Shown one piece after another: positions 8,271 to 41,409 of a stretch of 64,000 nt of DNA. Location of the stretch: positions 1 through 64,000 of IMG/VR virus record IMGVR_UViG_3300029906_000003. One strand, written 5' to 3'. Position 1 is the first letter of the stretch. Every line of letters starts with the position of its first letter. Position numbers and translations under genes: made by a program. The notes beneath the pieces were generated by a model. It was not told the origin of the DNA. It searched no databases and saw nothing but the letters and a program-made list of their open reading frames with translations. This DNA is from a virus (taxonomy: Duplodnaviria; Heunggongvirae; Uroviricota; Caudoviricetes).

Positions 8271-8296
8271 TCAAAAGAAAGAGGTGACTTTAATAC

Positions 8297-19066: not shown

Positions 19067-19087
19067 TTTATTTTCTCCTTTTTTCTC

Positions 19088-19525: not shown

Positions 19526-19764
19526 TACTTATTATACCAAATTACATTCTTATATATTCTTGCTTTTGTTAGGAAATTTTCCAAATCAAATAAATCTACT
19601 TCATCTTTTTCCTCCAAAGATTCATTAAGAAAGAATCCATATCCACTCTCCGTATCAAAGATTCCCATAATAACTCCCGTAAGGAACTCATTAACAGGAA
19701 CAATATTTGCGTATGGAGCTATCTCACAAGTCAAGATAAACATAATGTTCACCATCAATAACAA
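19525..19764 (-). CDS. hypothetical small protein overlapping the upstream gene in another frame; could be a frameshift product
   Basis: ORF track; TAATG overlap with the downstream start. Confidence 0.25.
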   Translation of the reverse strand: MLLMVNIMFILTCEIAPYANIVPVNEFLTGVIMGIFDTESGYGFFLNESLEEKDEVDLFDLENFLTKARIYKNVIWYNK

Positions 19765-20035
19765 AGTTCAAACTCTTAAGAAAAGCTCTGAACATATTCC
19801 GAATCGTGGCGGCGTCCTCTTCATCCTTGGACGCACCCTCATATGGCATTTCCTTAAACAAAGAAAATCTCAGGCTCACCTGTGTATCGGGAGAGACTGC
19901 GCCCGCGCTCACATTTTTAGCAAGCTCTTTCTCCTTCAAGTCAGGATACTGCTCATAAAATGCTTCAAGGGCTTCCTGAAAATTAATATGAATAAATGGC
20001 CCCTTTACAAAAAGTTTTTCCTTTTTCTTTGCCAT
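19724..20035 (-). CDS. hypothetical protein
   Basis: ORF track; TGA stop. Confidence 0.5.
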   Translation of the reverse strand: MAKKKEKLFVKGPFIHINFQEALEAFYEQYPDLKEKELAKNVSAGAVSPDTQVSLRFSLFKEMPYEGASKDEEDAATIRNMFRAFLKSLNFVIDGEHYVYLDL

Positions 20036-20175
20036 AAGTTATTTCTCCTTTTGTTTTCTTATGTATAAATTATATCATAAAAAAGGAAAATAATCAATAA
20101 GCAATTTTATTTTTTAAACAATAGAAAAAAGAAAAAGAGACGCGGCAGCTCGTGCCTTACGTCTCTAGTTGCGTT

Positions 20176-20249
20176 GGAGCAGGATACCAGACTCGAACTG
20201 GCGCTGTATGATTGGAAGTCATAAATGCTACCACTACACCAATCCTGCA
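20176..20249 (-). tRNA. tRNA-Gly(UCC)
   Basis: cloverleaf folded by hand: acceptor GCAGGAT/ATCCTGC, anticodon stem TATGA/TCATA with loop CTTCCAA, T-loop TTCGAGT, U73, CCA encoded. Confidence 0.8.
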
Positions 20250-20254
20250 TATGT

Positions 20255-20328
20255 GGAGCCGCCACGAAGAATCGAACTCCGATACGCTCATTACAAGTGA
20301 GCAGTTCTACCGTTAAACTATGGCGGCA
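20255..20328 (-). tRNA. tRNA-Thr(UGU)
   Basis: acceptor GCCGCCA/TGGCGGC, anticodon stem GCTCA/TGAGC, loop CTTGTAA, T-loop TTCGATT. Confidence 0.85.
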
Positions 20329-20406
20329 TAATTACTAGAGACTAAAAATAAATGGAGGTTTTTTCAGAACCGATTTATAAAATAAAATTTGCTGTGAGTC
20401 TCTAAT

Positions 20407-20482
20407 GGAGCACATGGGAATCGAACCCATCTGACTTCTTCCTTGCAAGGGAAGCGAACACCCCATGCATTCCCGTACCCCA
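20407..20482 (-). tRNA. tRNA-Ala(UGC)
   Basis: acceptor GGGGTAC/GTGCTCC with G3:U70, anticodon stem CTTCC/GGAAG, loop CTTGCAA, T-arm ATGGG-TTCGATT-CCCAT; CCA not encoded. Confidence 0.7.
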
Positions 20483-20485
20483 TAT

Positions 20486-20561
20486 GGTTGCAACTCGGAG
20501 ACTTGAACTCCAATCCTTCGATTATCAGTCGAAAGTTTTAACCGGTTAAACTAAGTCGCAT
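20486..20561 (-). tRNA. tRNA-Ile(GAU)
   Basis: anticodon stem TTCGA/TCGAA, loop CTGATAA, T-loop TTCAAGT, CCA. Confidence 0.85.
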
Positions 20562-20636
20562 TATAAAAACTAGAGAGCTTCAAAAATAAATCCAAGTCTT
20601 GTTATTTGATACCTCTTGCTGTAACTCTCTAATGGT

Positions 20637-20725
20637 GGTGCGCCCTGGGGGAATCGAACCCTCACAATGCGATAGCGTCTGAAGATTAGAAGTCAACTGT
20701 TTTATCCAATTAAACTAAGAGCGCT
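20637..20725 (-). tRNA. tRNA-like, type II architecture, anticodon arm does not pair (probable pseudo-tRNA)
   Basis: good acceptor GCGCTCT/AGGGCGC, D-arm GTTT..AAAC and T-arm, but no pairing around ..GTTGACTTCTAATCTTCAG.. Confidence 0.3.
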
Positions 20726-20958
20726 TAAATATAATTGATGAAAGAATTATTTTTGAACAGTCTTACTAATTCTGCGCTATCTACATCATTCAATCGGTTA
20801 GCAAGTTTATTAAGAATCTTAACAGTGCTCTCATTGTAATCTCCTTTATTAAGGATCTTAATAATTTCATCTTTTGCCGCAGAACTGTCCATAATGTACA
20901 AATTTAAAAGATTATCACTTGTAATTTTAGGATAAATAGTCATTCTATTCCCCTTCAA
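20725..20958 (-). CDS. hypothetical small protein
   Basis: ORF track. Confidence 0.4.
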   Translation of the reverse strand: MKGNRMTIYPKITSDNLLNLYIMDSSAAKDEIIKILNKGDYNESTVKILNKLANRLNDVDSAELVRLFKNNSFINYI

Positions 20959-21028
20959 GGCATAATATATTATTTTTTATTTTTCCAGAATAATAATTAA
21001 AAATTGCTGTATATGCCTTCATGGCTGA

Positions 21029-21664
21029 TTATAAATATCTCCATTCATATCCGTAAGCAGTTTTTCTTTTCCCTCTACAAGCAGCAGATATATGACTAAT
21101 GACTCCATTTATTTTTGAAAAAGTAATTCCTTCTTCGATTAAATATCTTGCAGCATCACTCATAGATAAGAATGTTCTTACGGGTAAATTATTTTTATAA
21201 GCAATAACTTTTTTAGAGCAGATTTCTTTCTGAAAAGAGTTATCTTTTATTCTAGGAACTCCTCTCGATTCTAAAATATTATATACTGAATCTACACAAA
21301 TATTCAAAGTATCTGCTACTTTTACACAGTTGTGTAAATTTTGATAAGTTTCAACAACTAAATCATAATCAATATATTTCTTTCCATCTCCTCCTAAAGT
21401 TGCATTATACCCGTTATGGTAAGAACCATAATATTGAATCCAATATCGCTCTCTCTCTTCTGAATTATCTGTTTCTTCAATCAGCTCAATATGGAAATGT
21501 TCTGGTCCATATTTATTCATTGCTGCATATAAAGGGCGCTTTTCGCATTTTTCTCTTTTATAGTCACAAAGATGCTCTTTAAATCTTGATTGAATACTCT
21601 ATTCTGTTTTTCCAATATAGATTTTCTAATTAATGTCGTTTGTAATTTTGTAGATGTATGCCAT
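21029..21664 (-). CDS. GIY-YIG homing endonuclease (I-TevI-like) with 2 in-frame TAG codons inside the GIY-YIG motif
   Basis: Track ORF 21029-21520 extended upstream gives MAYIYKITNDIN[TAG]KIYIGKTE[TAG]SIQSRFKEH. The ERERYWIQYYGS..NGYNATLGG region and the C-terminal ..AYGYEWRYL match I-TevI family. RBS AAGGAG. Confidence 0.75.
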
Positions 21665-21756
21665 ACTTAAATAGCTCCTTTCTATATGGTTCATTCTGTT
21701 AAAATAATAAAATATTTTTATCCAGGCGCACCACGTGGAGGAAAACCTTTGCGCCC

Positions 21757-21852
21757 TCGAGGCGGTGGGATTCGAACCCACATACTAGGGGTCAGAGCCC
21801 TAGGCTGTGAATGTTTTAGAGACATTTGCTGAACCAATTTAGCTACGCCTCG
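21757..21852 (-). tRNA. suppressor tRNA, anticodon CUA (reads UAG), long variable arm (type II), A73
   Basis: acceptor CGAGGCG/CGCCTCG, D-stem GCT/AGC, anticodon stem AATGT/ACATT with loop CTCTAAA (CUA at 34-36), variable arm hairpin CTAGGG-CTCTGAC-CCCTAG, T-arm GTGGG-TTCGAAT-CCCAC; CCA not encoded. Confidence 0.7.
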
Positions 21853-21991
21853 TTACGATACGAGAGGCAATTTACTTATGGTAATACAATCTTTTTTCCT
21901 TGTACTTTATCGCATATATTTGCTGTCTGTCTCTCTTTGTATTTATATTATATCATAATTTTAATTTTATGTCAATAGAATTTTTTAAATA

Positions 21992-22183
21992 TTAAAGAAC
22001 TCCGCGCCGATGAAGTTCATGGCAAATGATATTATACCTTGAAACAATAGCAGAGAAATTAATATACTTGGCTTTTACAGACTCTTCAATTACATTCCAC
22101 AGTTTATCTCGTTCTCTCATTAAACGTTCAGTCGAAAGCTCATTAGGAAAATGAGTCTCAACATTGTACATCTTTTCGTTCAT
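21992..22183 (-). CDS. hypothetical small protein
   Basis: ORF track. Confidence 0.4.
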   Translation of the reverse strand: MNEKMYNVETHFPNELSTERLMRERDKLWNVIEESVKAKYINFSAIVSRYNIICHELHRRGVL

Positions 22184-22216
22184 GCGGCCTCAGTCCTTTC
22201 TTTACAGTATTGAGTA

Positions 22217-22292
22217 TGGTCGGAACGGCGAGACTCGGACTCGCTGCATCCAGATCCCAAATCTGGCATTCTACCAGTTGAATTACGTCCCG
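22217..22292 (-). tRNA. tRNA-Pro(UGG)
   Basis: anticodon stem CCAGA/TCTGG, loop TTTGGGA, D-arm ATTC..GAAT, CCA. Confidence 0.85.
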
Positions 22293-22312
22293 TTTTAGAC
22301 GGCTCCTGCCGC

Positions 22313-22484
22313 ATTATCTTCGCTGTAGGAACCAAATATCTCTCTTCCTTTGTCTCTTGATATTATCTATTTCTTTAGATAAACTACTTATTTTATTTTC
22401 TATTCTTACAATATCTGAAATGATAATTGGAGGATTATTTATAGATTCTAATTCTACTATTTTATCATCTAATTGTTCATACAT
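22313..22484 (-). CDS. hypothetical small coiled-coil protein (56 aa)
   Basis: manual ORF MYEQLDDKIVELESINNPP... Confidence 0.3.
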
Positions 22485-22511
22485 AGTATCACCTGCTCTT
22501 TATCATTCATA

Positions 22512-22587
22512 TGGGCAGAAGGAAGAGAATTGAACTCTTACTATCAAATCCACAATTTGAGGTGCTAACCATTACACTACCAACTGC
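22512..22587 (-). tRNA. tRNA-His(GUG)
   Basis: extra G-1 opposite C73, anticodon stem TCAAA/TTTGA, loop TTGTGGA; two U-U mismatches in the acceptor stem. Confidence 0.7.
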
Positions 22588-22603
22588 ATATTATATTTTT
22601 TAG

Positions 22604-22679
22604 TGGTGCGCTCGGAGAGATTTGAACTCTCGACCAACGGATTAAAGGTCCGCGACTCTTCCAGCTGAGTTACGAGCGC
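22604..22679 (-). tRNA. tRNA-Lys(UUU)
   Basis: acceptor GCGCTCG/CGAGCGC, anticodon loop CCTTTAA (unusual C33), T-loop TTCAAAT, CCA. Confidence 0.75.
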
Positions 22680-22694
22680 ATAGAAAAGAGAAGA

Positions 22695-23231
22695 TTAGCT
22701 CTTCTCTGTTTGATTTAGAATAATTTTAAATATATCTTCCGCTGTTTTAATAGTCTTACTAGCTTTTTCTACTTCCTGAGCGGTTTTTGCTTTCATATCT
22801 TTAAGAAATTCTGCTTGAACCGCGCATTGTTTATCTCTTTCCTCTTGTTCTTTTTTGTCCTTGAAATATTTATCTACTTTGTCGTAGTCTATTGCGGTCT
22901 TTAATTTAATATATTCGTAATTTGGTTCTGAAGAACTCAGATATACACTTATATTAGTATATTGTTGTTTTTTCTTCTTTTCAAATTCTTCATATGACTT
23001 ATCTGAAATATAAATTAAATATTTATGGCCAGGAGTTCTTTTTAAAAGAAAATTTTTAGGATAAAGCTCATGGAATAGAATATATTGGTTTGCTGTTAAT
23101 TCTATACAAGATGCCGAACTAGGAGGACTCATAAATTCATGTATAGCGGATATTTTTGCTAATTTATCAACAATAAAAGCAGTAGCAAAAAACGTACAGA
23201 GAAAAATTAGAACAACTAACATTTTAACCAT
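22695..23231 (-). CDS. hypothetical membrane-anchored protein
   Basis: ORF track; N-terminal TM helix. Confidence 0.55.
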   Translation of the reverse strand: MVKMLVVLIFLCTFFATAFIVDKLAKISAIHEFMSPPSSASCIELTANQYILFHELYPKNFLLKRTPGHKYLIYISDKSYEEFEKKKKQQYTNISVYLSSSEPNYEYIKLKTAIDYDKVDKYFKDKKEQEERDKQCAVQAEFLKDMKAKTAQEVEKASKTIKTAEDIFKIILNQTEKS

Positions 23232-23248
23232 ATATTACCTTCCTTTTG

Positions 23249-23322
23249 TGGAGCACACGGTTGGAGTCGAACCAACTTTCACAGATTTGCAGCCTGCTAT
23301 CTAGCCGTCTGATTCCGTGCGC
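23249..23322 (-). tRNA. tRNA-Cys(GCA)
   Basis: anticodon stem GCAGG/TCTGT (two G-U pairs), loop CTGCAAA, T-loop TTCGACT, U73, CCA. Confidence 0.7.
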
Positions 23323-23617
23323 ATATAAATACTCCCCAATATTTTGTAGTCCGTATCAGACTATTATCCGAATTGTTCTCCTTGGGGAAGGCAAACTCCT
23401 TGAGATTTGCTCAAGTATAGCCAACTATTAATATAGTTGTCAAATAATAAAGCAGGTGTGCTATTACGCTAAAAAATATTATTTTTACCTATTGGCACTT
23501 CATTATTTTATAGGACATTATTTCATGTAGCCTATTATATAATTTTTTGCACCTAATAGAATAATATTTACTCATTATAGGATAGCTGCTTCTAAGCTTA
23601 CCTTCCTGCTTTGCATA

Positions 23618-23709
23618 TGGCGCCGGTTAGAAGATTCGAACTTCTGGAGGGGAATTTCCCCTCAAGGGTTTAGCAAACCCCTGCACTCGACCAACTATGC
23701 GAAACCGGC
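23618..23709 (-). tRNA. tRNA-Ser(GCU)
   Basis: type II: acceptor GCCGGTT/AACCGGC, anticodon loop TTGCTAA, long variable arm GAGGGG-AAATT-CCCCTC, G73, CCA. Confidence 0.85.
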
Positions 23710-23723
23710 AAAAAAAAACAAGA

Positions 23724-23799
23724 CAGTATGTATATACTAATGCGTTACCATTACGCTATATTCGCTATTAATGGCGCGAACATTCGGATTTGAACCGAA
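23724..23799 (-). other. permuted or fragmented tRNA-like element: a 3' half (T-arm, acceptor 3' strand, CCA) lies 6 nt upstream of a matching 5' half (acceptor, D-arm, hairpin)
   Basis: sense order TTCGG-TTCAAAT-CCGAA TGTTCGC G CCA ttaata GCGAATA TA GCGT-AATGGTA-ACGC ...; the two acceptor strands are complementary. Confidence 0.3.
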
Positions 23800-23869
23800 A
23801 ATACTTAGTTCCCTAAGAATTTTGCTGTTACTGTCTTTATTTATATAAAACTATCAAGATACCTTTTTA

Positions 23870-23938
23870 AAACTGGGACTCGAACCCAGACCCTTTTGAT
23901 TATCAGTCAAATGCTCTAACCAGTTGAGCTATTAAGCG
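23870..23938 (-). tRNA. tRNA-Ile(GAU)-like pseudogene (acceptor strands do not pair)
   Basis: D-arm GCTC-AACTGGTTA-GAGC, anticodon arm TTTGA-CTGATAA-TCAAA and T-arm CTGGG-TTCGAGT-CCCAG are good, but the 3' acceptor TTTTAAA does not pair with the 5' side. Confidence 0.3.
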
Positions 23939-24056
23939 CGAGGTGCGCTCAAAAGTGTTTGCTGTAAGTATCTTTAATTGCGGATGGGATTAACCAATAT
24001 ATTTCTGCAAAATTAGTTAAAACAGACTCACCACGTGAAGGTTTTTGCATGAGTCC

Positions 24057-24142
24057 CGGGCGGGGTGGGATTCGAACCCACGGAGGCGTGAACCTCAACG
24101 GTTTTCAAGACCGTCTCAATAATCCAGCTCTGACACCCGCCC
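24057..24142 (-). tRNA. tRNA-Ser(UGA)
   Basis: acceptor GGGCGGG/CCCGCCC, anticodon stem ACGGT/ACCGT, loop CTTGAAA, long variable arm, G73. Confidence 0.85.
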
Positions 24143-24150
24143 AAAATAAT

Positions 24151-24297
24151 GGGGAAATTCACCCCTTGGCCGCATTCATCTGCCGCTTAGCCTTACGAAC
24201 AAGATTCTTATTACTTACCTGCTTTTTACCATTACTTACTGTATCACGATAGTTCAAACGGTTAATACGATTCTGAAAATGTTCAACAGTCTTATTC
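24151..24297 (-). CDS. small basic (Lys/Arg-rich) protein (48 aa)
   Basis: manual ORF MNKTVEHFQNRINRLNYRD...; RBS GGAGGG. Confidence 0.3.
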
Positions 24298-24305
24298 ATA
24301 TTATT

Positions 24306-24524
24306 TTAGCCCTCCAACATTGTCCAAAGAGTTACTTTATAACCAAATTGTGAATCTTCAATTAAAGGAACAATAGCAACAATATCTTTGCTTGCCAAAT
24401 TATTTGCCTTATAAAAAGTGATAAAACTTTCAATAACATTTTTCATAGCCGCCTTTTTGCTTGGATGCGGCCCATCCTCAAAAGTTCTAATTCTCATTTT
24501 CTGTAATAATGTTTTTCCCACCAC
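24306..24524 (-). CDS. hypothetical small protein
   Basis: ORF track. Confidence 0.45.
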   Translation of the reverse strand: MVGKTLLQKMRIRTFEDGPHPSKKAAMKNVIESFITFYKANNLASKDIVAIVPLIEDSQFGYKVTLWTMLEG

Positions 24525-24607
24525 TTCAAATAATCTTTAAGGGTTCCCTGGTTCTTCAAATGCGGCGATGGCGTTCCAAAAATTTTTAATTGCATTCCGA
24601 CGACACC

Positions 24608-24970
24608 TTACTTCCGATACTGAGGGCCGCGCTTATAATAAAAATTAACGAAGTCCTCAAGACTATTAATTTCAGGATGCTTCCACATAAAATATGGAGT
24701 AATTCCAGTTGCTTCATACTCTCTCATTTCGTGATAGTATGAAGCAATAACATCTTTCAAAGGCCAATAACAAATATAATCCGCAATATCCCAAGATTCA
24801 AAATTCTTTCGATAATATTTTTTTGCTCTTGGATTAGATGATTCATCCATTTGCCGCAGGAGGTCTTGCTTCATCTTTCTACGATACTTTCGATTAGCAA
24901 TTTGCTTAATCTGTTTCTTTTTCCTATTGCCATCTTTTGAAACAGGAAATTTCTTATAGCTACGACTCAT
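24608..24970 (-). CDS. hypothetical basic protein
   Basis: ORF track. Confidence 0.5.
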   Translation of the reverse strand: MSRSYKKFPVSKDGNRKKKQIKQIANRKYRRKMKQDLLRQMDESSNPRAKKYYRKNFESWDIADYICYWPLKDVIASYYHEMREYEATGITPYFMWKHPEINSLEDFVNFYYKRGPQYRK

Positions 24971-25090
24971 TAAGCAATCCTCCTACTCTTTTAACAAGAC
25001 AGTTTTTAATAATCACTTATATGATTCAAATTCATATGTTTATATTATAAAAACATTTGCTGTAACTGTCTTTCTTTTGTTTATATGCTT

Positions 25091-25119
25091 ATTATATCAT
25101 TTTTATAAAAATCTGTCAA
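25091..25119 (-). promoter_or_regulatory. sigma-A consensus promoter (TTGACA-17-TGaTATAAT), leftward
   Basis: revcomp reads ttgttgTTGACAgatttttataaaaaTGaTATAATaag; it is followed in the transcript by the conserved leader AAGACAGTTACAGCAAA. Confidence 0.6.
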
Positions 25120-25199
25120 CAACAGATTTCTTAATCTAAAATAAGTAGCAGTTTTACATCATGCTCAGGATGCGTCTTGAGGTAGCGAAATCTCTTGAC

Positions 25200-25286
25200 T
25201 GGTGGGCAGGGAACGGATTTGAACCTTTGAAGGACTAAGCCACCAGAACTACAATCTGGCCTCGTTGACCACTTGAGTACCTACCC
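25200..25286 (-). tRNA. tRNA-Tyr(GUA)
   Basis: type II; anticodon stem CCAGA/TCTGG, loop TTGTAGT, 3-bp D-stem, A73; T-stem has one mismatch and an extra C. Confidence 0.65.
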
Positions 25287-25294
25287 ATAATTAA

Positions 25295-25372
25295 TGGTAC
25301 TGTTGGAGAGACTTGAACTCTCAATTGTACAAGGTTTGAACTTGTTGCGTATGCCAATTCCGCCACAACAGC
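25295..25372 (-). tRNA. tRNA-Leu(CAA), atypically short variable arm
   Basis: anticodon stem ACAAG/CTTGT, loop TTCAAAC, T-arm GAGAG-TTCAAGT-CTCTC, A73, CCA. Confidence 0.6.
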
Positions 25373-25439
25373 ATATAAATTAGCCTTTTAAAGTCATGCT
25401 TAGGACTCATTGAAATGATGTAGTTAATTAGACTGCTAA

Positions 25440-25529
25440 TGGTGCGGGAAGAGAGATTTGAACTCTCATTCCTACTTTGTTCGGAGTCAACTTCTAAGGC
25501 TGATGTGGCTGCCGTTTCACCATTCCCGC
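25440..25529 (-). tRNA. tRNA-Leu(UAG)
   Basis: type II; anticodon stem TCAGC/GTTGA, loop CTTAGAA, T-arm GAGAG-TTCAAAT-CTCTC, A73. Confidence 0.8.
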
Positions 25530-25584
25530 ATATGAGAGCCTTTTATAGTCGTACTCAGGACTAATTTTTGGAGGTTCATCATGG

Positions 25585-25899
25585 TGGTGCTGCTGACGAG
25601 ATTTGAACTCGTAAGCTATTTCTAGCAACGGATTTTCTTACTACTTCATGTCGCCATGACCGCATTTGCGTTGTAGTCTGGAGTATACCTTGACCATATT
25701 ACTATTGTAACTTAGGTCCGCGCCGTCTACTCTCTCCACATTCCATTTTTCAATGTTAGCTCGGCGATAGTCTTAACCGATATTAATTAAGATTTCCCCC
25801 GAATTTGACGCGATTCACTCTAGTCATTTCTTCCTAGGTGCTCAAGCCTTCTTTTGTTAAGGCCAAGTCCGTAGTGTTTGCCAATTTCACCACAGCAGC
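25585..25899 (-). tRNA. tRNA-Leu(UAA) interrupted by a 229-nt putative group I intron in the anticodon loop. Exons are 25866-25899 and 25585-25636; the intron is about 25637-25865.
   Basis: 5' exon: GCTGCTG TG GTG-AAATTGGCAAA-CAC T ACGGA CTT. 3' exon: AAAA TCCGT T-GCTA-GAAA-TAGC-TT ACGAG-TTCAAAT-CTCGT CAGCAGC A CCA. Both acceptor strands and both anticodon-stem strands are complementary. The intron follows U34 and ends in G, as in cyanobacterial tRNA-Leu(UAA) introns. Confidence 0.55.
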
Positions 25900-26613
25900 A
25901 TATAGAAATTGAATACCTCACTTTTAACCACTCGCTAGACCTTCGTCTTACTCTCATCTATTCTCTGTTATATTCAGTCACGAGGCAATGAAGTCTGAGC
26001 TTCGGGTAGCGACCCCTAACTTCTTCACTGGCGGACCTAAATCCGCATTCTCTCTAGCCGCTTGATTACGACTAACTTTCACTCGTCATTCAGACCAATG
26101 TGTATAATACATATTCATCCAACGTCCAGATTTTGAGCTACTTGTACTGAACTCTCCCCTTATAGACAGATTTCTCTGCTTCAACTGGACATTATTTGCT
26201 TACTAGGATTACCTAGAGTTTGCTTAGTTTCCTAGGCTAAACCTTATCTAGGCTTATTCTCGTACTTGCGAGCGTCTATTGCGCAAACGGGGAGTCAAGT
26301 TCATACCTTTAACTAGGGAATAAATTACTAGCACCATAAACTCGCGGAAGTGGCCTTTGGCCGCTCATACTCTCACATCACTGAAAGAGTCATTTGGCTG
26401 TTACAAGGGTATCCTCTTGTCCAGTCCTACCCGCATATTTAAAGCTCATGTCTAGGCCAGATGACCTTCTGTCTTCACCTAGATAGCTAGTGGCTAAAAG
26501 TAAGGTATTCAATTCTCAAAGTTCTATTTATTTATCAAGACAGTATTTAAATCAGACTATCAATCTAACATTATCCAAGCTAAAATTTGCTGTAACTGTC
26601 TTTTGATGTATTT

Positions 26614-26642
26614 ATTATAACAAATTTTTATTTATTTGTCAA
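26614..26642 (-). promoter_or_regulatory. sigma-A consensus promoter (TTGACA-17-TATAAT), leftward, with the conserved leader motif
   Basis: revcomp reads TTGACAaataaataaaaatttgtTATAAT, then ..AGACAGTTACAGCAAATTTT. Confidence 0.6.
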
Positions 26643-26658
26643 TAAGGAATTTTATCTA

Positions 26659-27211
26659 TTAAACTTTGTTAAAGATAAAAACAACTTCCTTAGTGACCTC
26701 TTCCTCGTCAACAGTGTCAGTCAGATTGAGGACAATAGCAACACTAGACCAAGTCTCAGGCTCCTTAAAATAGACAGAACCTTCAAGAGAATAATCAGAA
26801 ATGTTTACGCCGTCTTCATCATGCGGATTCAGATTCACCTCAAGCAGATTATCGTCGCCAGTGTTCACAGGAGTCTCAGGAACATAACTGCCATCAAAAT
26901 AAGCGCGAACCATCAAATTCAAATGACCGTCATCAGGTTCCGCACTATTGATTTCAACGACCTTATCCAAATGATTCACCATTGTAAAATCTACCTGAAT
27001 ATAGCCGTCATGAGTAACGCCATACCCTACAGAATTTACAACGAATGCCTTGTCATCAAAAATCAAACTCTTAGTCTGCGGCTGGGAAGTAATGCCTTCA
27101 TCCTTATCTGCGGCAGGAGTCTGAGCTCAAGCCGTCATCATACTAGTTGCGGCCATGACACCAATAGCAGAAAGAAATGCCCGACGAGAAATCTTATTAA
27201 AATTCTTCATT
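26659..27211 (-). CDS. secreted (Tat-signal) hypothetical protein with an in-frame TGA between the signal peptide and the mature domain
   Basis: MKNFNKISRRAFLSAIGVMAATSMMTA[TGA]AQTPAADKDEG.. runs in frame into track ORF 26659-27066 (which starts at TTG); the twin-arginine motif SRRAFL is present. Confidence 0.35.
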
Positions 27212-27262
27212 AATTTTACCTCACTTTATGTTTTTGTTTTTTAATTTATTTATATTTTTTAC

Positions 27263-27338
27263 TGGAAGCGGCCATGGGGATTGAACCCATATCTCGAACT
27301 TGAGAGGCTCGTATCTTTGCCGATTGGACGAGGCCGCC
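27263..27338 (-). tRNA. tRNA-like, possible Glu(CUC); D-arm poorly formed
   Basis: acceptor GGCGGCC/GGCCGCT, T-arm ATGGG-TTCAATC-CCCAT, CCA; best anticodon stem CGAGC/GTTCG with loop CTCTCAA. Confidence 0.35.
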
Positions 27339-27493
27339 ATAAAAACAAGACGGAGTATAAAATGGAGCTATTTAAAGTAGCAATTTTTATTAGAATATTT
27401 GCTGTATCCGTCTTTAAGCTAATCCTTTTATATGGAGGACTAAAACCATACATCGTTATAGAAAGGAATTAAATATAATGGAACTTACTCCGG

Positions 27494-27569
27494 TGGTTGC
27501 GATGGAAGGATTTAAACCTTCGAATGGAGGAGTCAAAGTCCTCTGCCTTCATCACTTGGCTACACCGCA
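27494..27569 (-). tRNA. tRNA-Gln(UUG)
   Basis: U1:A72, anticodon stem GAGGA/TCCTC, loop CTTTGAC, T-arm GAAGG-TTTAAAT-CCTTC, CCA. Confidence 0.85.
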
Positions 27570-27608
27570 TTATAACTTAGCCTTTTTACATGGAAGGCTA
27601 AAACCGCA

Positions 27609-27684
27609 TGGGTGCGGATACGAGAATCGAACTCGTCCTATACTGCTTATGAGACAGTTCAGTACTCCAGCACTGTCATCCGCG
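27609..27684 (-). tRNA. tRNA-Met(CAU); the C1-A72 mismatch suggests an initiator type
   Basis: anticodon stem ACTGT/GCAGT, loop CTCATAA, T-loop TTCGATT, CCA. Confidence 0.75.
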
Positions 27685-27823
27685 ATATAAAAGCAAGCTT
27701 ATTTTACTACTGGCCTTGCTAACCAGGTGTCTGTTCAGTTCCTCCGAGTTCGTCATTCTTATATTATAGTCCCTTTGAACTCGCCAACTACGTTTTCCCT
27801 CGAAAGGCACAACTAAGGACTGA

Positions 27824-27916
27824 TGGAAGCGTAGAGGAGGCTCGAACTCCCAAACAGTATCACTACTGAGCTCCACTGTGAAAGAGTGGGGACTCTACCA
27901 ATTTGTCTACTACGCC
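27824..27916 (-). tRNA. tRNA-Glu(UUC)-like with an unusual 21-nt variable arm
   Basis: acceptor GGCGTAG/CTACGCT, D-stem GAC/GTC, anticodon stem CCACT/AGTGG, loop CTTTCAC, extra arm CAGT-AGTGAT-ACTG, T-arm GGGAG-TTCGAGC-CTCCT, CCA. Confidence 0.45.
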
Positions 27917-28036
27917 ATATTAAAGAGAAAAGATTTAAAAGTATTACTTTTCTCTTGTTTGTATATCTATTATACCATTTTTTATCTATTTTGTCAATAA
28001 GTAATTTCTTAAATCAAATTTTTCTTTTCTTTCTCT

Positions 28037-28177
28037 CTATGCGTTTTTATACGCTTCTAGCTCTTTCAAAAGTTTACATCCATTACAAGACTTCCTACGT
28101 TCGCAAAACCAACAGTTATCGGTATCCAGAGTAAACCATCGCGGAGGCTCTGGCCGCATCTTTCGTTTCTTTTTCAT
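28037..28177 (-). CDS. small Cys-rich (CxxC..CxxC) protein
   Basis: manual ORF MKKKRKMRPEPPRWFTLDTDNCWFCERRKSCNGCKLLKELEAYKNA, ends at a TAG (possible read-through). Confidence 0.3.
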   Translation of the reverse strand: MKKKRKMRPEPPRWFTLDTDNCWFCERRKSCNGCKLLKELEAYKNA

Positions 28178-28215
28178 AGATGTACTCCTTTTTCTATTGT
28201 TATTTTATTGCTGAC

Positions 28216-28291
28216 TGGTGCGGAATGAGGGATTTGAACCCACTACTTTTTGGATGTAAGCCAAATACTCTACCAACTGAGTTAATCCCGC
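28216..28291 (-). tRNA. tRNA-Val(UAC)
   Basis: acceptor GCGGGAT/ATTCCGC, anticodon stem TTTGG/CCAAA, loop CTTACAT, CCA. Confidence 0.85.
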
Positions 28292-28297
28292 ATTTTT

Positions 28298-28373
28298 TGG
28301 TGAGGTATCTTCGAGTTGAACGAAGATTGATAGATTTTCAGTCTACTGCCTTGACCACCTAGGCTAATACCCC
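28298..28373 (-). tRNA. tRNA-Phe(GAA)
   Basis: anticodon stem GTAGA/TCTAT, loop CTGAAAA, D-arm GCCT..AGGC, CCA. Confidence 0.85.
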
Positions 28374-28374
28374 A

Positions 28375-28450
28375 TGGCATAGTCGGAGAGAATCGAACTC
28401 CCAACATATAGTTTTGGAGACTATTGTTCTACCAGTTGAACTACGACTAC
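28375..28450 (-). tRNA. tRNA-Trp(CCA)
   Basis: anticodon stem ATAGT/ACTAT, loop CTCCAAA, T-loop TTCGATT, CCA. Confidence 0.8.
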
Positions 28451-28455
28451 ATAAT

Positions 28456-28530
28456 TGGCGGGTACACAGAGAATCGAACTCTGATTTTCAACTGGACAGG
28501 TTGAACTTCTAGCCATTGAACTATGCACCC
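28456..28530 (-). tRNA. tRNA-Asp(GUC)
   Basis: anticodon stem TCAAC/GTTGA, loop CTGTCCA, T-arm CAGAG-TTCGATT-CTCTG, CCA. Confidence 0.8.
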
Positions 28531-28534
28531 ATAA

Positions 28535-28611
28535 TGGAGGGGTATTTCAGATTTGAACTGAAGACACGAAGCTTAACAGGCTTCTGCTCTAACCTACTGA
28601 GCTAATACCCC
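28535..28611 (-). tRNA. tRNA-Asn(GUU)
   Basis: acceptor GGGGTAT/ATACCCC, anticodon stem GAAGC/GCTTC, loop CTGTTAA, CCA. Confidence 0.85.
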
Positions 28612-28757
28612 ATATATGGCGGGACAAGATGCGCCCTGCCGCAAGACAGTTTTATATTTCTTGCCTATCAAATATATATAAAAGAAATTTGCTGTATCTG
28701 TCTTATGTATTTATTATACCATTTTTTTATTTTTTTATCAATAAGGATTTTTTTTTA

Positions 28758-29585
28758 TTAAGCTATATAATCCTTTAAAACAGAAGCCCTGATTGGATTC
28801 CTCATCTTCTTGAGGGCGCACTTTTCTACTTGCCGCACTCGTTCTTTAGAAAGACCAATCTTTCTTGCAATTTCATCAAGAGTAAGAGGTTTAATATAAC
28901 CAATACCGAACCGCATCTTTAATATATCAGATTCTTTATCAGGAAGAGTACTCAATACTTTATTTATCTTCTAACACATTTCTTTTTCTTCATACTTCTC
29001 TTGAATTTCTGATTCTTTATCTTCAATAAAATCACCAAAAGAGTCTTCATTATCTTCCGAGATGGGAGAATCAAGAGAAATCATATCATTCATATAACTC
29101 TTAATTTTTTTCAGCTCTTCAAAAGTAATGCCCATTTCCGCGGCAACCTCTTCATCAGAGAACGAGTTATATTTTTGCATCATTCCCGTCGTAATCTTTT
29201 TATACTTATTAATTTTCTCAACAATATGACTAGGAACTCTGATATTTTCAGATTGCTGACTTAATGCTCGCGAAATTGCAGACTTAATCCAATAATAAGC
29301 ATATGTACTAAAACGATAACTACTGGACAAATCATATTTGTCAATAGCTGTCATTAAGCCAATATTACCTTCTTGGACCAAATCCAAAAAAGATAAACTT
29401 GCATTTTGCGAATAATATTTCTTAGCAATAAAAACAACAAGTCTAAGATTAGCCTCAATCAATTCTTCTCGTGCAGTCTTATTTCCTGACTGTGCTTTTT
29501 CAAGAAGAATCCTTTCGGTTTCCGTATCTAATATATTATCAGATAACTCATTTAAATAGATAGAACTAATATCAATATCTGCCAT
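28758..29585 (-). CDS. sigma-70 family sigma factor (regions 2-4, group 3/SigF-G-like) with 1 in-frame TAG between regions 3 and 4
   Basis: Track ORFs 28971-29585 (DLVQEGNIGLMTAIDKYD, region 2) and 28758-28955 (LTLDEIARKIGLSKERVRQVEKCALKKMR, region 4.2 HTH) share one frame and are separated by a single TAG: ..KEMC[TAG]KINKVLSTLPDKESD.. Confidence 0.75.
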
Positions 29586-29646
29586 TTATCTACATTCTCC
29601 TTTTTGTGTCAATAATTATAACATAAAAAAGAAAAAATGTCAATGG

Positions 29647-29865
29647 TTACTTTTTTGTTTTAGTATCCGCACGGTAACACAGCATAGAAACTGTCCAACA
29701 CTCATTTCCACATTCAGGACAACTAGCTGTATAATACGGAGGATTCAAGTCGTCCGCGGGGTGAAGGCACGTTTCTGTCGCCCTTTCAGCTTCAAAGACG
29801 CACCCACACAAATTACAATGGAAACGAATATTATTATAGTGATAACCATGTTCAAGGACTCTCAT
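29647..29865 (-). CDS. zinc-ribbon protein
   Basis: two CxxC pairs (CNLCGC, CPECGNEC). Confidence 0.45.
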   Translation of the reverse strand: MRVLEHGYHYNNIRFHCNLCGCVFEAERATETCLHPADDLNPPYYTASCPECGNECWTVSMLCYRADTKTKK

Positions 29866-29869
29866 TATT

Positions 29870-30463
29870 TTATTCCTCCACTATTACTTGAAAGACTTCC
29901 TTATCTACCCACAATCCAGAATTTAATGCCTCTTCATGCGAATCAAAGTAAATGTCAATAATCTTTTTTCCTAGTCCGCCGCCGCGGTCTTCAACAATGT
30001 ACTCATGTCCATCAATAACAATCTTAGTTCCGAAAGGAATACCATTCATTGCCGCAGTCCTGCCCGCAGTAGCTTTCGTTCCAGATGCAGTAATGCCATC
30101 CGTCTTGCCGCAACACTTTACGCAAGGGCAATAGGCAGAAATCTTATAAACGCCAAGTGAAACCAATTCAGGTTCTTTCTCTTTTTTAGCTTCCGCCTCT
30201 TTAATAATTACAGCATCTTTTTCTTTTTGCTCTAAAGCTAACTGCTCCATAGTAAATTCATACGGAGACTGATATGCGACAAGCTCACTATCGCATTCTT
30301 GAGACGCAATGGCATTTTTTACCGAAATGCATCCTACTAACGCAATAAGTGCGATTCCCGCGATAAATTCCTTTCCCAATCTCATTTCTCTTTCTCCTTT
30401 TCTATTGTTTTGATGCAAAGAATGAGAACTGGGAGGGGTAATATTAATTAAAAAATGAGCCAA
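29870..30463 (-). CDS. 3D-domain (MltA/YocH-like) lytic transglycosylase lipoprotein. The likely true start is MRLGKEF.. near 30388.
   Basis: lipobox LIALVGC; 3D domain YKISAYCPCVKCCGKTDGITASG...IDIYFDSHEEA. Confidence 0.65.
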   Translation of the reverse strand: MAHFLINITPPSSHSLHQNNRKGEREMRLGKEFIAGIALIALVGCISVKNAIASQECDSELVAYQSPYEFTMEQLALEQKEKDAVIIKEAEAKKEKEPELVSLGVYKISAYCPCVKCCGKTDGITASGTKATAGRTAAMNGIPFGTKIVIDGHEYIVEDRGGGLGKKIIDIYFDSHEEALNSGLWVDKEVFQVIVEE

Positions 30464-30659
30464 ATAAATTATCTAAAATAGTCCAGACATCTATAAGGCT
30501 CATTTATTGGTGCCACCCCCGTGAATCGAACACGGAACCTGTCAATTATAAGTTGACTGCTCTGACCAGTTGAGCTAGAGCGGCATATAAGGAGGCTTGA
30601 AGCACCTTGTCGCTTTCACATGGCGGCCTCTTTCTTTATATATTATACCATTTTTATTC

Positions 30660-30812
30660 TTCTTCGTCAATAAAAGATTTTTTAAGCTGAATTACTTCAT
30701 AATCAATGACAGTATAACGCTCCTGAAGAAAATACAAATCAGCAAAATTGTTAATAACACAAATATGCTTAATAGAATAGTCGTCAATATACCAAACCTG
30801 AATATGAAGCAT
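30660..30812 (-). CDS. hypothetical small protein (50 aa)
   Basis: manual ORF; RBS AAGGAGAG. Confidence 0.25.
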
Positions 30813-30829
30813 CTTTAACTCTCCTTCTT

Positions 30830-31114
30830 TTATAGATTAAACTTATCAATCAATCTACGAACATTTTCTAGTTCTTCTTCTGTTGGCATAGAATCAATAG
30901 AAGAAAGAATTGGTGCGGGCAGCTCACTATCTCCACGCTGAGACTCGTGTGATACGTTCTCCTTTGCCGCGGTCATAGTAAGTTTAATTTGAATTTCTTC
31001 ACCATCTTCAATGCCGCAAATTCTTAACTCTTTACCATTAATGAATGAGTTAGGAAAAATCTAAAGAATAAGGTTAGAAATTTTTTCCTTAGTTGCGCTT
31101 CCTTTTGCCGCCAT
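30830..31114 (-). CDS. hypothetical protein with 1 in-frame TAG; possibly an AbrB/SpoVT-like swapped-hairpin regulator
   Basis: manual: MAAKGSATKEKISNLIL[TAG]IFPNSFINGKELRICGIEDGEEIQIKL.. Confidence 0.35.
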
Positions 31115-31182
31115 TATTTTCTCCTTTATATTTTTTATCTTTATTGTATAATTATTATATCATTTTTCTTATTTTTTGTCAA

Positions 31183-31998
31183 TTATGTTTTTTCTTTTTT
31201 ATCTTTTATCTTTTTTGCAACGTGACTCAATTCTTCAATCCTCTTGCACATTTTACATGAGCCATCTATAAGACAACGTTTGCGGCAACTCGTTCTAAAC
31301 CAAGCAAACTCTGGCCCAATGTATCTATTATCAATATCAGAATCTAGTCCCAAGATAATTTCTTTCAGCGGCCCCCACCATTTTTTTTCTTTTGCATATA
31401 TCTTGTATAGAGTTCCATCTGAATTGTTAAAAGATATAAGTTCGCAAACATCAACCCAATTCTCATAAGCAGATATATCCTCTGGCCGCACATAGAATTG
31501 CGTCAATTTATCTCCATACGAGTATGATGACTGACAGATATTAGGGTATATCCGTACAGAGGCGCCGGCCGCATGAACCTTCTTTGCAACATTTTGAATA
31601 TCAAATCCTAATTGGTTTCCAATATATATATCAGTTACACCAAGAGAAAGAAAACCATCTATGGTATCGTAGTCCAATGGGATGTTGACAAAAAAGAATG
31701 GAATCTTATCTTCTTTAAAGAAATCAAGTATATTTTTTATTTTTTCATTGTTAAGATAATAAGCAAATCTTATTTTTATTTTCTCTGGATATTTTTTGAC
31801 TAGAGACTTAATTGATTTATATTCTTGGCCACGCAAAGACAATTTATCTATTACATCATTAGAGCAACTTAGAATAAAAGAGGTGGAATCATCGTCCCAC
31901 CCCTGAATTTGATTCTCTATTGCTTTGATGCGGCCAAAGTCTATGTCAATAATTAGTTCATCCAATCCGGGGACGCTTTTCCGCATACAAAACTTCAT
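31183..31998 (-). CDS. hypothetical protein with a C-terminal Cys cluster
   Basis: ORF track. Confidence 0.55.
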   Translation of the reverse strand: MKFCMRKSVPGLDELIIDIDFGRIKAIENQIQGWDDDSTSFILSCSNDVIDKLSLRGQEYKSIKSLVKKYPEKIKIRFAYYLNNEKIKNILDFFKEDKIPFFFVNIPLDYDTIDGFLSLGVTDIYIGNQLGFDIQNVAKKVHAAGASVRIYPNICQSSYSYGDKLTQFYVRPEDISAYENWVDVCELISFNNSDGTLYKIYAKEKKWWGPLKEIILGLDSDIDNRYIGPEFAWFRTSCRKRCLIDGSCKMCKRIEELSHVAKKIKDKKEKT

Positions 31999-32001
31999 TT
32001 A

Positions 32002-33517: not shown

Positions 33518-33634
33518 TTTAATCTCCTTTTTCTCTTTCTATTGTTTTATCTTTTATAAATGTATTATATCATATATCATATTATTTATCAATAAATAAT
33601 TTTTGCTTCTGAAACAATAGAAGAAAATATATAT

Positions 33635-33662
33635 TGACATATCTATTATAATATGGTATAAT
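33635..33662 (+). promoter_or_regulatory. sigma-A consensus promoter TTGACA-16/17-TATAAT driving the rightward block
   Basis: atatTTGACAtatctattataatatggTATAATtttt. Confidence 0.55.
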
Positions 33663-41331: not shown

Positions 41332-41409
41332 AAATATGATATAATTATTATAGAGAACAGAAAAAAGACAATTCTGTTCTCTATTGTTTTATAAAGGAGG
41401 AAATAAAAA

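What the first reader, a model, noticed from the sequence alone, without database searches (positions are those of the whole stretch)
25900..26600. ~700-nt ORF-free, GC-elevated region next to the intron-bearing tRNA
No ORF of 60 aa or more lies on either strand, and GC content is well above the genome background. The region holds many local hairpins (for example GCGGACCTAAATCCGC) but no recognisable tRNA T-arms. It sits inside the leftward tRNA transcription unit. It could be a large structured RNA such as a ribozyme or a degenerate intron, or a decayed insertion.
Basis: seen in the sequence. Interest (0 to 1): 0.5.

Follow-up and report, generated by a model that had tools for sequence, protein, structure and literature searches.

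The report
ROOL RNA gene in phage tRNA array
The ORF-free stretch is a full-length gene for ROOL RNA, a described large phage and bacterial RNA that builds hollow RNA-only cages of unknown function, so it is a real but ordinary member of a known family.

Summary
Window 25900-26600 has no ORF of 60 aa or more. Its GC is 40.7% against 35.5% for the window, a moderate rise. It lies in a minus-strand tRNA array.

It is a ROOL RNA (Rfam RF03087) at 25918-26506 on the minus strand: 303 bits against a gathering score of 99, E about 1e-69, covering the whole model. A 31-bp closing helix extends it to 25906-26515.

- 77% of the consensus base pairs form in this sequence, against 32-46% with slid partners.
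- 55 pairs are kept although both bases differ from the family consensus.
- Covariation is strong against 17 other phage ROOLs, which are only 42-51% identical.
- Seven related contigs all keep a full-length ROOL, and in two of them (one arrangement) it sits elsewhere in the array.

A perfect TTGACA-17-TGnTATAAT promoter lies about 100 nt upstream. An intron-bearing tRNA-Leu(UAA) starts 6 nt downstream, followed by tRNA-Leu(UAG), tRNA-Leu(CAA) and tRNA-Tyr.

The RNA is probably co-transcribed with these tRNAs, released by tRNA processing, and assembled into a homo-oligomeric nanocage like the solved ROOLs. Its biological role is unknown, here as in the literature.

It is not a ribozyme, an intron or a decayed insertion. 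Novelty is nil at the family level and interest is low to moderate.

The parts
25906..26515 (-). ROOL RNA gene, the complete element including the extended closing helix P1. The Rfam RF03087 match covers 25918-26506.
   Evidence: 303.4 bits, gathering score 99.1, E 1.8e-69, model 1-574/574; same hit at gathering threshold and the only ROOL in the window; base-pair conservation and covariation. P1 extension.
26485..26515 (-). 5' arm of closing helix P1. It forms 31 contiguous base pairs with 25906-25936, 15 pairs more than the Rfam consensus helix.
   Evidence: helix 1: 96% of cells paired across six related sequences, and 7 pairs changed on both sides.
25906..25936 (-). 3' arm of closing helix P1. 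It ends 6 nt before the 5' end of tRNA-Leu(UAA).
26226..26237 (-). Hairpin loop GCCUAGGAAACU. Its CUAGGA is complementary to the junction UCCUAG at 26199-26210. I take this to be the covarying loop-junction contact that is an inter-subunit kissing bridge in solved ROOL cages.
   Evidence: 6 bp within this sequence, but only 2-4 bp between this loop and the junctions of other ROOLs. The equivalent pairing is GUGGCA/UGCCA in the Rfam consensus. The mapping to bridge B4 of PMC12286853 is my inference.
26199..26210 (-). Junction AAUCCUAGUAAG, the partner of the loop at 26226-26237.
26095..26136 (-). Variable linker of 42 nt between the conserved GUACAAGUAGC and UCUGAAUGA...GUGAAAGUU boxes. It corresponds to the non-conserved linker that is disordered inside the solved cage.
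   Evidence: this stretch aligns to the model's long unstructured loop with low posterior probability; length and sequence vary even among close relatives. Linker described in PMC12286853.
26614..26642 (-). Consensus sigma-70 promoter with extended -10 (TTGACA-N14-TGT-TATAAT), about 100 nt upstream of ROOL.
   Evidence: 8 exact matches in the window against 0 in 100 shuffles; the same promoter sits upstream of ROOL in L038-L041, with a near-identical copy in L042.
26516..26613 (-). AT-rich leader (25.5% GC) between promoter and ROOL. It contains the repeated motif AAAGACAGTTACAGCAAA at 26586-26603.
   Evidence: motif 6 times, 0.05 expected..
25585..25899 (-). tRNA-Leu(UAA) interrupted between U34 and A35 by a 228-nt group-I-like intron (25637-25864). 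It is the first tRNA downstream of ROOL, so RNase P cleavage at its 5' end would define the ROOL 3' end.
   Evidence: ARAGORN with introns allowed. Intron_gpI 24.7 bits, below the gathering score of 50, E 2e-4 on this 361-nt stretch; an intron-less tRNA-Leu(UAA) occupies the same position in L041 and L042.
25200..25529 (-). The remaining tRNAs of the same inferred transcription unit: Leu(UAG) 25440-25529, Leu(CAA) 25295-25372 and Tyr(GUA) 25200-25286. The next promoter follows at 25091-25119.
   Evidence: The scan found no minus-strand terminator-like site between 26614 and 25300; its one minus-strand hit in the unit, 25271-25257, lies inside tRNA-Tyr.

Best explanation
The region encodes a ROOL RNA (Rumen-Originating, Ornate, Large; Rfam RF03087) on the minus strand at 25906-26515, inside the tRNA array of a large, uncultured phage.

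What the sequence analysis shows: the RNA matches the whole ROOL model, forms the family's consensus helices, keeps them through compensatory changes, and is retained in every related contig recovered.

What I infer about expression: transcription starts at the consensus promoter at 26614-26642 and yields one precursor containing a leader, ROOL, tRNA-Leu(UAA) with its intron, tRNA-Leu(UAG), tRNA-Leu(CAA) and tRNA-Tyr. RNase P cleavage at the 5' end of tRNA-Leu, 6 nt beyond the P1 helix, frees the ROOL 3' end. The 31-bp P1 helix then protects both ends of the RNA.

What I infer by homology with solved ROOL structures: the RNA folds into a flat multi-junction monomer and self-assembles without protein into a hollow dihedral cage of six or eight copies. 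Loop-junction kissing contacts hold the cage together, including the CUAGGA/UCCUAG pair kept here. The 42-nt variable linker faces the interior.

What the cage does for the phage is unknown. Its consistent co-orientation with phage tRNAs suggests a role tied to the phage's translation programme or to enclosing some macromolecule.
For: **Family match**
- The hit is full length and far above threshold: 303.4 bits against a gathering score of 99.1, E 1.8e-69, model 1-574.

**Structure**
- 119 of 154 consensus pairs are canonical (77%), against 32-46% when partners are slid.
- 55 pairs are kept with both bases different from the consensus.
- In an alignment with 17 full-length phage ROOLs, only 42-51% identical to this one, 68.7% of cells pair against 40-47% slid. 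The covariation score is 0.50 against 0.13-0.20, and 0 of 500 shuffles reach it.
- In an alignment with five lineage relatives, 78% of cells pair against 34-46% slid. 34 pairs change on both sides against 5-10 slid.
- The minus strand folds better than the plus strand: z = -6.2 against -4.0.
- The loop-junction complementarity is specific to this sequence.

**Conservation**
- All seven related contigs that span enough of the array carry a full-length ROOL at 281-298 bits.
- In L036 and L037 it sits at a different place in the array, so it was kept through rearrangement.

**Context**
- All 23 IMG/VR contigs found with a ROOL sequence pattern carry a ROOL. Every tRNA in those stored stretches is on the ROOL strand.
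- A same-strand tRNA lies within 50 nt downstream of ROOL in 6 of them.

**Expression signals**
- An exact extended -10 promoter lies upstream. There are 8 in the window against 0 expected.
- The promoter is also present upstream of ROOL in the close relatives.

**Published properties**
- ROOL is encoded in phages and prophages near tRNA islands. The env-120 ROOL forms a 280 A homo-octameric cage, stable down to 12.5-50 nM (PMC12286853).
- Other ROOLs form hexamers or octamers (PMC12990946).
- The L. salivarius ROOL is more abundant than 16S rRNA (PMC5643018).
Against: - There is no transcript, end-mapping or structural data for this sequence. Co-transcription, processing and oligomerisation are all inferred.
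- About 23% of the consensus pairs are not canonical here, concentrated in three helices. Some of this may be local misalignment.
- The oligomeric state cannot be predicted from sequence. Solved ROOLs differ in stoichiometry (hexamer or octamer) because of small differences in an apical stem.
- No function is known for any ROOL, and deleting it in L. salivarius gave no clear phenotype.
- The scan found no terminator inside the unit, but it is only a consensus scan.
Confidence: 0.9

Rival explanations
1. It is a ROOL-family RNA that works in cis as part of the tRNA precursor rather than as a free cage. For example, it could be a structured 5' module that stabilises the transcript or governs the processing of the downstream class II tRNAs and the splicing of the intron-bearing tRNA-Leu.
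For: ROOL heads its own promoter-driven unit and abuts a tRNA within 6 nt. Same-strand tRNAs lie close to ROOL in most phage loci. Weinberg et al. raised co-transcription as a possible reason for the tRNA proximity.
Against: In L036 and L037 the ROOL moved to a different set of tRNAs, following Ser and Lys. In other phages its neighbours are many different tRNAs, or none. L. salivarius and E. faecalis ROOLs accumulate as free, stable RNAs and form cages in vitro. The inter-subunit contact is conserved here.
Confidence: 0.07
2. It is a catalytic RNA or a degenerate self-splicing intron.
For: It is large, ornate and conserved. A genuine group-I-like intron sits 40 nt away in tRNA-Leu.
Against: No intron or ribozyme family matches 25900-26600 at E <= 1, while ROOL matches end to end. 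The region does not interrupt any gene: the flanking sequences are a promoter leader and a complete tRNA. Solved ROOL structures show a cage with no described active site. Relatives that lack the tRNA intron still have ROOL.
Confidence: 0.02
3. It is a decayed insertion or non-functional spacer that happens to be ORF-free and GC-richer than its surroundings.
For: There is no coding capacity. Homing endonuclease genes and introns in the array show that mobile DNA does land here.
Against: The match to the covariance model is full length. Double compensatory changes maintain the helices across 64-95% identical relatives and 42-51% identical family members. The element is retained in all seven related contigs even after relocation. 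It has a dedicated consensus promoter.
Confidence: 0.01

Closest known systems
ROOL RNA (Rfam RF03087; Weinberg et al. 2017, PMC5737381; the lncRNA of Ligilactobacillus salivarius, Cousin et al. 2017, PMC5643018; cryo-EM cages in Kretsch et al. 2025, PMC12286853)
   Same: Full-length match at three times the gathering score. The size is right: 589 nt in the model and 610 nt with P1. It has the same multi-junction helices, the same conserved boxes (GUGAAGA, GGAUAC, CAAUAGACGC, GUACAAGUAGC, UCUGAAUGA-N3-GUGAAAGUU, GCUCAGACUU, CGAAGG), the same variable linker, the same loop-junction contact, and the same phage and tRNA-array context.
   Different: Only details differ. P1 is 15 bp longer than the consensus helix. 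Sequence identity to 17 other phage ROOLs is low, at 42-51%. The kissing pair uses CUAGGA/UCCUAG instead of the consensus GUGGCA/UGCCA. It heads its own promoter-driven unit and is directly followed by an intron-bearing tRNA-Leu.
[quoted passage not shown]
   Same: It is also a large ornate RNA of phages and prophages, found near or inside tRNA arrays. It also forms RNA-only cages, and its function is also unknown.
   Different: Its sequence and secondary structure are unrelated. It is larger (about 700-830 nt in the solved examples) and forms cages of 10 to 14 copies. No GOLLD match occurs anywhere in the window.
phi29 prohead RNA (pRNA)
   Same: It is a phage-encoded RNA that works as a homo-oligomer held together by intermolecular loop-loop pairing (mentioned).
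   Different: pRNA is far smaller than ROOL and forms a ring on the packaging motor together with proteins (size and motor role from my own knowledge). It shows no sequence or structural relation to ROOL and has no tRNA association.
tRNA-Leu(UAA) group I intron of cyanobacteria and plastids (relevant to the neighbouring tRNA, not to the finding itself)
   Same: The intron next to ROOL sits between U34 and A35 of tRNA-Leu(UAA), the classical insertion site (established knowledge). It also gives a full-length though weak Intron_gpI alignment.
   Different: The score is below Rfam's gathering threshold (24.7 against 50). It is a phage copy with presence/absence polymorphism among relatives. Versions in two other ROOL phages carry an HNH-type ORF.

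Membership tests
ROOL RNA (RF03087) | Covariance-model score at or above the curated gathering score, covering the whole model | tested here: met
   303.4 bits against 99.1, E 1.8e-69, model positions 1-574 of 574, not truncated.
ROOL RNA (RF03087) | Length of roughly 550-660 nt (family mean 581 nt) | tested here: met
   589 nt aligned to the model, or 610 nt including the extended P1. Family mean from PMC5737381.
ROOL RNA (RF03087) | The consensus multi-junction secondary structure is formed and is maintained by compensatory changes | tested here: met
   119 of 154 pairs are canonical, against 32-46% slid, and 55 pairs change on both sides relative to the consensus. Covariation score 0.50 against at most 0.20 slid, with 0 of 500 shuffles reaching it. 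Within the lineage, 34 pairs change on both sides against 5-10 slid. Three helices pair poorly in this sequence.
ROOL RNA (RF03087) | Conserved sequence boxes of the family | tested here: met
   All upper-case consensus boxes are present. 60 columns are invariant across the window and 17 phage ROOLs, including GTAGC and TCTGAATGA...GTGAAAGTT.
ROOL RNA (RF03087) | Covarying loop-junction pairing (a predicted pseudoknot, seen as inter-subunit kissing bridge B4 in the env-120 cage) | tested here: met
   CUAGGA (loop at 26226-26237) pairs with UCCUAG (junction at 26199-26210) over 6 bp. The partner sequences differ in other ROOLs but stay complementary in 13 of 18. Assigning this pairing to B4 is my inference from the description.
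ROOL RNA (RF03087) | Non-conserved internal linker | tested here: met
   The 42-nt stretch 26095-26136 aligns to the model's unstructured loop. Its length and sequence vary among homologues, even close ones.
ROOL RNA (RF03087) | Phage or prophage context, next to tRNA genes on the same strand | tested here: met
   26 tRNAs are on the same strand. Phage-type genes surround it: sigma factor, homing endonuclease, primase, RecJ-like exonuclease, gyrase and ligase. The 23 IMG/VR ROOL loci show the same arrangement.
ROOL RNA (RF03087) | Protein-free assembly into a dihedral homo-hexamer or homo-octamer cage | not testable with these tools
   Known for env-120, E. faecalis and L. salivarius ROOLs. 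Testing it here needs cryo-EM or mass photometry of this RNA.
ROOL RNA (RF03087) | Accumulates as an abundant, stable, non-coding transcript | not testable with these tools
   No expression data are available for this metagenomic contig. Only a consensus promoter and the lack of ORFs bear on it.
Group I / group II introns and known ribozymes | Match to a catalytic-RNA covariance model, and interruption of a host gene | tested here: not met
   No such family matches 25900-26600 at E <= 1. The element lies between a promoter leader and a complete tRNA rather than inside a gene. The only intron-like hit is in the neighbouring tRNA-Leu.
GOLLD RNA | Match to the GOLLD covariance model | tested here: not met
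   There is no GOLLD hit in the window, either at the gathering threshold or at E <= 1 across the array.

The most novel reading that the evidence does not exclude
In this phage lineage ROOL could be tied to the phage's reprogramming of translation. Three observations make this possible:
- ROOL is kept while moving about inside a tRNA array.
- That array also encodes an amber-suppressor tRNA(CUA).
- ROOL is driven by the same consensus promoter and shares the same leader motif as the tRNA units.

The cage might enclose or shield a translation component during the switch to amber-recoded genes, such as phage tRNAs, a ribosomal subunit or a release factor. The evidence does not exclude this, and it offers no direct support for it.
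Probability: 0.05. Interest if true: 0.75.

Novelty: already known. Interest (0 to 1): 0.25.

Why it matters
ROOL is one of the few natural RNAs known to build protein-free nanocages, and nobody knows what the cages are for. This copy adds nothing new at the family level, because a routine Rfam scan annotates it.

It does offer a tidy natural comparison set:
- close relatives with the same promoter-ROOL-tRNA unit;
- relatives with and without the tRNA-Leu intron;
- a more distant relative in which ROOL has moved within the array but kept its helices through compensatory changes.

That retention argues for selection on the RNA in a lytic-type large phage. It also gives defined constructs for expression, processing and assembly experiments. 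The practical gain is correct annotation: the region should not be treated as a novel ribozyme or as junk.

Tried and rejected
- **Phage database searches.** blastn of the region and megablast of 20 kb of the window against the INPHARED phage collection found nothing. No deposited phage is closely related.
- **Protein-based locus searches.** The search for related loci with the 120-aa neighbour found no relative in IMG/VR. With the sigma factor it found one distant locus (37% identity) that has neither ROOL nor tRNAs, which is uninformative.
- **Genome scan.** A scan with a ROOL box returned 10 MAG contigs from very different phyla. None is close to this ROOL, so no host could be inferred.
- **Covariance model.** The model builder is limited to 400 columns, which is too short for a full-length ROOL. 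I used MAFFT alignments with the Rfam structure projected from the window's cmscan alignment. Misalignment probably lowers the pairing percentages in some helices.
- **Second kissing loop.** I tried to map the symmetric kissing loop (L18/B6 in PMC12286853, described as a 4-bp L15-L15'' contact in PMC12990946) onto the UCGCU hairpin at 26004-26016. I could not establish a self-complementary 4-mer there, so I make no claim about it.
- **Stop-codon usage.** A window-wide test was not decisive for a global code change.
- **tRNA neighbours.** I looked for enrichment of tRNA-Leu or other class II tRNAs next to ROOL in other phages and rejected the idea, because the neighbours are varied.

Full report
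**1. The observation**

The interval 25900-26600 has no ORF of 60 aa or more on either strand; the longest is 45 aa. Its GC is 40.7%, against 35.5% for the window. This is the 87th percentile of 701-nt windows, so the rise is real but moderate. No tRNA lies inside the interval. With introns allowed, ARAGORN finds 25 tRNAs, all on the minus strand, and Rfam adds one more at 23252-23322. The interval sits between tRNA-Glu (27263-27338) and an intron-bearing tRNA-Leu (25585-25899).

**2. What it is**

A scan of 19000-32000 against all Rfam families gives one outstanding hit: ROOL RNA (RF03087) at 25918-26506 on the minus strand. It scores 303.4 bits against a gathering score of 99.1, with E 1.8e-69, and covers model positions 1-574 of 574. 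At the gathering threshold it is the only non-tRNA RNA family in the whole 64-kb window.

I parsed the cmscan alignment to test the structure.
- Of 154 consensus base pairs that have letters on both sides, 119 (77%) are canonical in this sequence.
- Sliding the 3' partners by 1-3 positions gives 32-46%.
- 55 pairs are kept even though both bases differ from the family consensus.

The outermost helix goes further than the model. It is 31 contiguous pairs, 26515-26485 with 25936-25906, so the element spans 25906-26515, or 610 nt. The minus strand folds to -205.3 kcal/mol (z = -6.2). The plus strand folds to -172 kcal/mol (z = -4.0).

**3. Comparison with other ROOLs**

The conserved box TCTGAATGANNNGTGAAAGTT finds 23 IMG/VR viral contigs. 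All 23 carry a ROOL at the match, at 170-363 bits. Nineteen of the stored stretches contain tRNAs, and every one of those tRNAs is on the ROOL strand. A same-strand tRNA lies within 50 nt downstream in 6 of them.

The 17 full-length copies are only 42-51% identical to the window's RNA. I projected the Rfam structure onto a MAFFT alignment of all 18 sequences.
- 68.7% of cells pair, against 40-47% with slid partners.
- The covariation score is 0.50, against 0.13-0.20.
- 570 cells change on both sides, against 191-276.
- None of 500 column shuffles reaches the observed values.

A hairpin loop and a downstream junction also covary. The Rfam consensus has GUGGCA/UGCCA. Other phages have UGAGA/UCUCA and UUGACA/UGUCAA. 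The window has CUAGGA/UCCUAG, which gives 6 bp. The window's loop finds only 2-4 bp with the junctions of other ROOLs. From the published description this is most likely the contact first predicted as a pseudoknot and later seen as the conserved inter-subunit kissing bridge B4. That assignment is my inference.

**4. Conservation in related phages**

No deposited phage is similar. The 120-aa ORF just downstream (24608-24970) has homologues at 66-88% identity, and I fetched their contigs. The window itself matches ENA assembly ERZ27239287, contig k119_35755, of 140 kb. All seven related contigs that reach far enough carry a full-length ROOL at 281-298 bits.

| Contigs | ROOL identity to window | Arrangement |
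|---|---|---|
| L038, L039, L040 | 95% (measured for L038 and L040) | promoter, ROOL, tRNA-Leu(UAA) with a 217-229 nt intron, Leu(UAG), Leu(CAA), Tyr, 120-aa gene; same as the window |
| L041, L042 | 93% | an intron-less tRNA-Leu(UAA) follows ROOL by 17 nt |
| L036, L037 | 64% (measured for L036; both give the same Rfam score) | the Leu tRNAs lack ROOL; ROOL sits 22 nt after tRNA-Lys, downstream of the 120-aa gene |

In the six-sequence alignment, 78% of cells pair against 34-46% slid, and 34 pairs change on both sides against 5-10 slid. The RNA is therefore under selection in this lineage, and its position within the array can change.

**5. Expression signals**

An exact TTGACA-N14-TGN-TATAAT promoter lies at 26614-26642 on the minus strand. 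The window has eight such sites against none in 100 shuffles, and six of them are on the minus strand inside the tRNA region. The next one downstream is at 25091-25119, after tRNA-Tyr. The scan found no minus-strand terminator-like site between the promoter and the last tRNA; its one minus-strand hit in that stretch lies inside tRNA-Tyr. The same promoter precedes ROOL in L038-L041, with a near-identical copy in L042.

The inferred unit is: leader, ROOL, tRNA-Leu(UAA) with intron, tRNA-Leu(UAG), tRNA-Leu(CAA), tRNA-Tyr. The tRNA-Leu 5' end (25899) is 6 nt past the P1 helix, so RNase P would release ROOL. This rests on established knowledge of tRNA maturation and is not shown here.

**6. What is known about the family**

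[quoted passage not shown] It occurs in several phyla, often near tRNAs and in prophages (PMC5737381).
- It was found independently as a very abundant, stable and dispensable lncRNA of L. salivarius (PMC5643018).
- Cryo-EM showed that the env-120 ROOL forms a hollow homo-octamer of about 280 A. The cage is stable at nanomolar concentration, has a disordered internal linker, and has conserved intermolecular bridges (PMC12286853).
- Other ROOLs form hexamers or octamers (PMC12990946).
- A search in 2024 listed 1,596 non-redundant ROOL sequences.
- The function is still unknown. Enclosing tRNAs, ribosomes or other molecules has been proposed.

**7. Verdict**

The finding is a real feature, a standard member of a described family. 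The ideas of a ribozyme, a degenerate intron or a decayed insertion are not supported. The cage assembly and the processing route are inferred by homology and context, and the biological role remains open. At the family level it is already known. Its interest lies in the comparative set of relatives and in its association with an apparently amber-recoding, tRNA-rich phage.

**8. Side observations**

- **Group-I-like intron.** The neighbouring tRNA-Leu(UAA) carries a 228-nt group-I-like intron between U34 and A35. The intron is absent in some close relatives. Versions in two other ROOL phages carry an HNH-type ORF.
- **Amber suppressor tRNA.** The tRNA at 21757-21852 is an amber suppressor (anticodon CUA) with a long variable arm, which ARAGORN miscalls as Phe(aaa).
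- **In-frame stops.** The sigma-factor gene has an in-frame TAG between regions 3 and 4. L036 has its own tRNA(CUA) and an in-frame stop aligned with Gln of the relatives.
- **Repeated leader motif.** A motif repeated six times follows several of the promoters, and it is also found in L036.

Noticed in passing
window 25585-25899 (-); intron 25637-25864: tRNA-Leu(UAA) is split between U34 and A35 by a 228-nt intron. The intron gives a full-length but sub-threshold Intron_gpI alignment (24.7 bits). Close relatives L041 and L042 have an intron-less tRNA-Leu(UAA) at the same place, while L038-L040 have the intron. In L007 and L021 a similar intron containing an HNH-type ORF lies just upstream of their ROOL.
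   Followed up: partly
window 21757-21852 (-): This tRNA has the anticodon loop CUCUAAA, so its anticodon is CUA and it is an amber suppressor. It has a long variable arm. ARAGORN miscalls it as tRNA-Phe(aaa). The related contig L036 has a different, short-arm tRNA(CUA) at 8262-8336.
   Followed up: partly
window 28971-28973 (-), inside the sigma-factor gene at about 28750-29585: An in-frame TAG separates sigma-70 regions 2-3 from a well-conserved region 4, which suggests that TAG is read as an amino acid. In L036 an in-frame stop in the lipoprotein gene aligns with Gln of the relatives. A window-wide codon test was not decisive.
   Followed up: partly
window 27127-27129 (-), in ORF 26659-27210: An in-frame TGA replaces the TGC codon for the lipobox cysteine (MMTAC|AQ in relatives L038 and L041) of a small predicted lipoprotein. 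This is probably a nonsense mutation or an assembly error rather than recoding.
   Followed up: partly
window 21947-21975, 25091-25119, 26614-26642, 27969-27997, 29615-29643, 31154-31182 (-); 33634-33662, 41317-41345 (+): There are eight exact TTGACA-N14-TGN-TATAAT promoters, against none in 100 shuffles. This is a strikingly uniform set of consensus extended -10 promoters in a phage that also encodes its own sigma-70-family factor.
   Followed up: partly
window 23821-23838, 23958-23975, 25056-25073, 26586-26603, 27398-27415, 28688-28705 (motif on the - strand): An 18-nt motif, AAAGACAGTTACAGCAAA, occurs 6 times against 0.05 expected. Three copies lie within about 20 nt downstream of a consensus or near-consensus -10 box, ahead of tRNA, ROOL or gene units. 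It is also present in the 64%-diverged relative L036. Its function is unknown; it might be a processing or regulatory site.
   Followed up: partly
window 17006-18535 (-) and 19088-19525 (-): A 509-aa protein matches phrog_850 'RNA-binding protein' and the domains DUF2828 and DUF7788. A YqeY-like protein is also present, annotated in PHROGs as tRNA amidotransferase. Both sit at the edge of the tRNA array.
   Followed up: no
window 33697-34881 (+): A phage-encoded adenylosuccinate synthetase homologue (PF00709, E 1e-27). Some phage homologues of this enzyme make 2-aminoadenine DNA (my recollection, not checked here).
   Followed up: no
window 23772-23939 (-): An odd tRNA-like element. Rfam matches only tRNA model positions 6-65, at 23871-23933. 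ARAGORN calls it tRNA-Ile(gat) with an 83-nt intron. Two copies of the leader motif lie in or just beside it.
   Followed up: no
window 21029-21520 (-): A homing-endonuclease-like ORF (phrog_314, GIY-YIG type) is embedded in the tRNA array.
   Followed up: no
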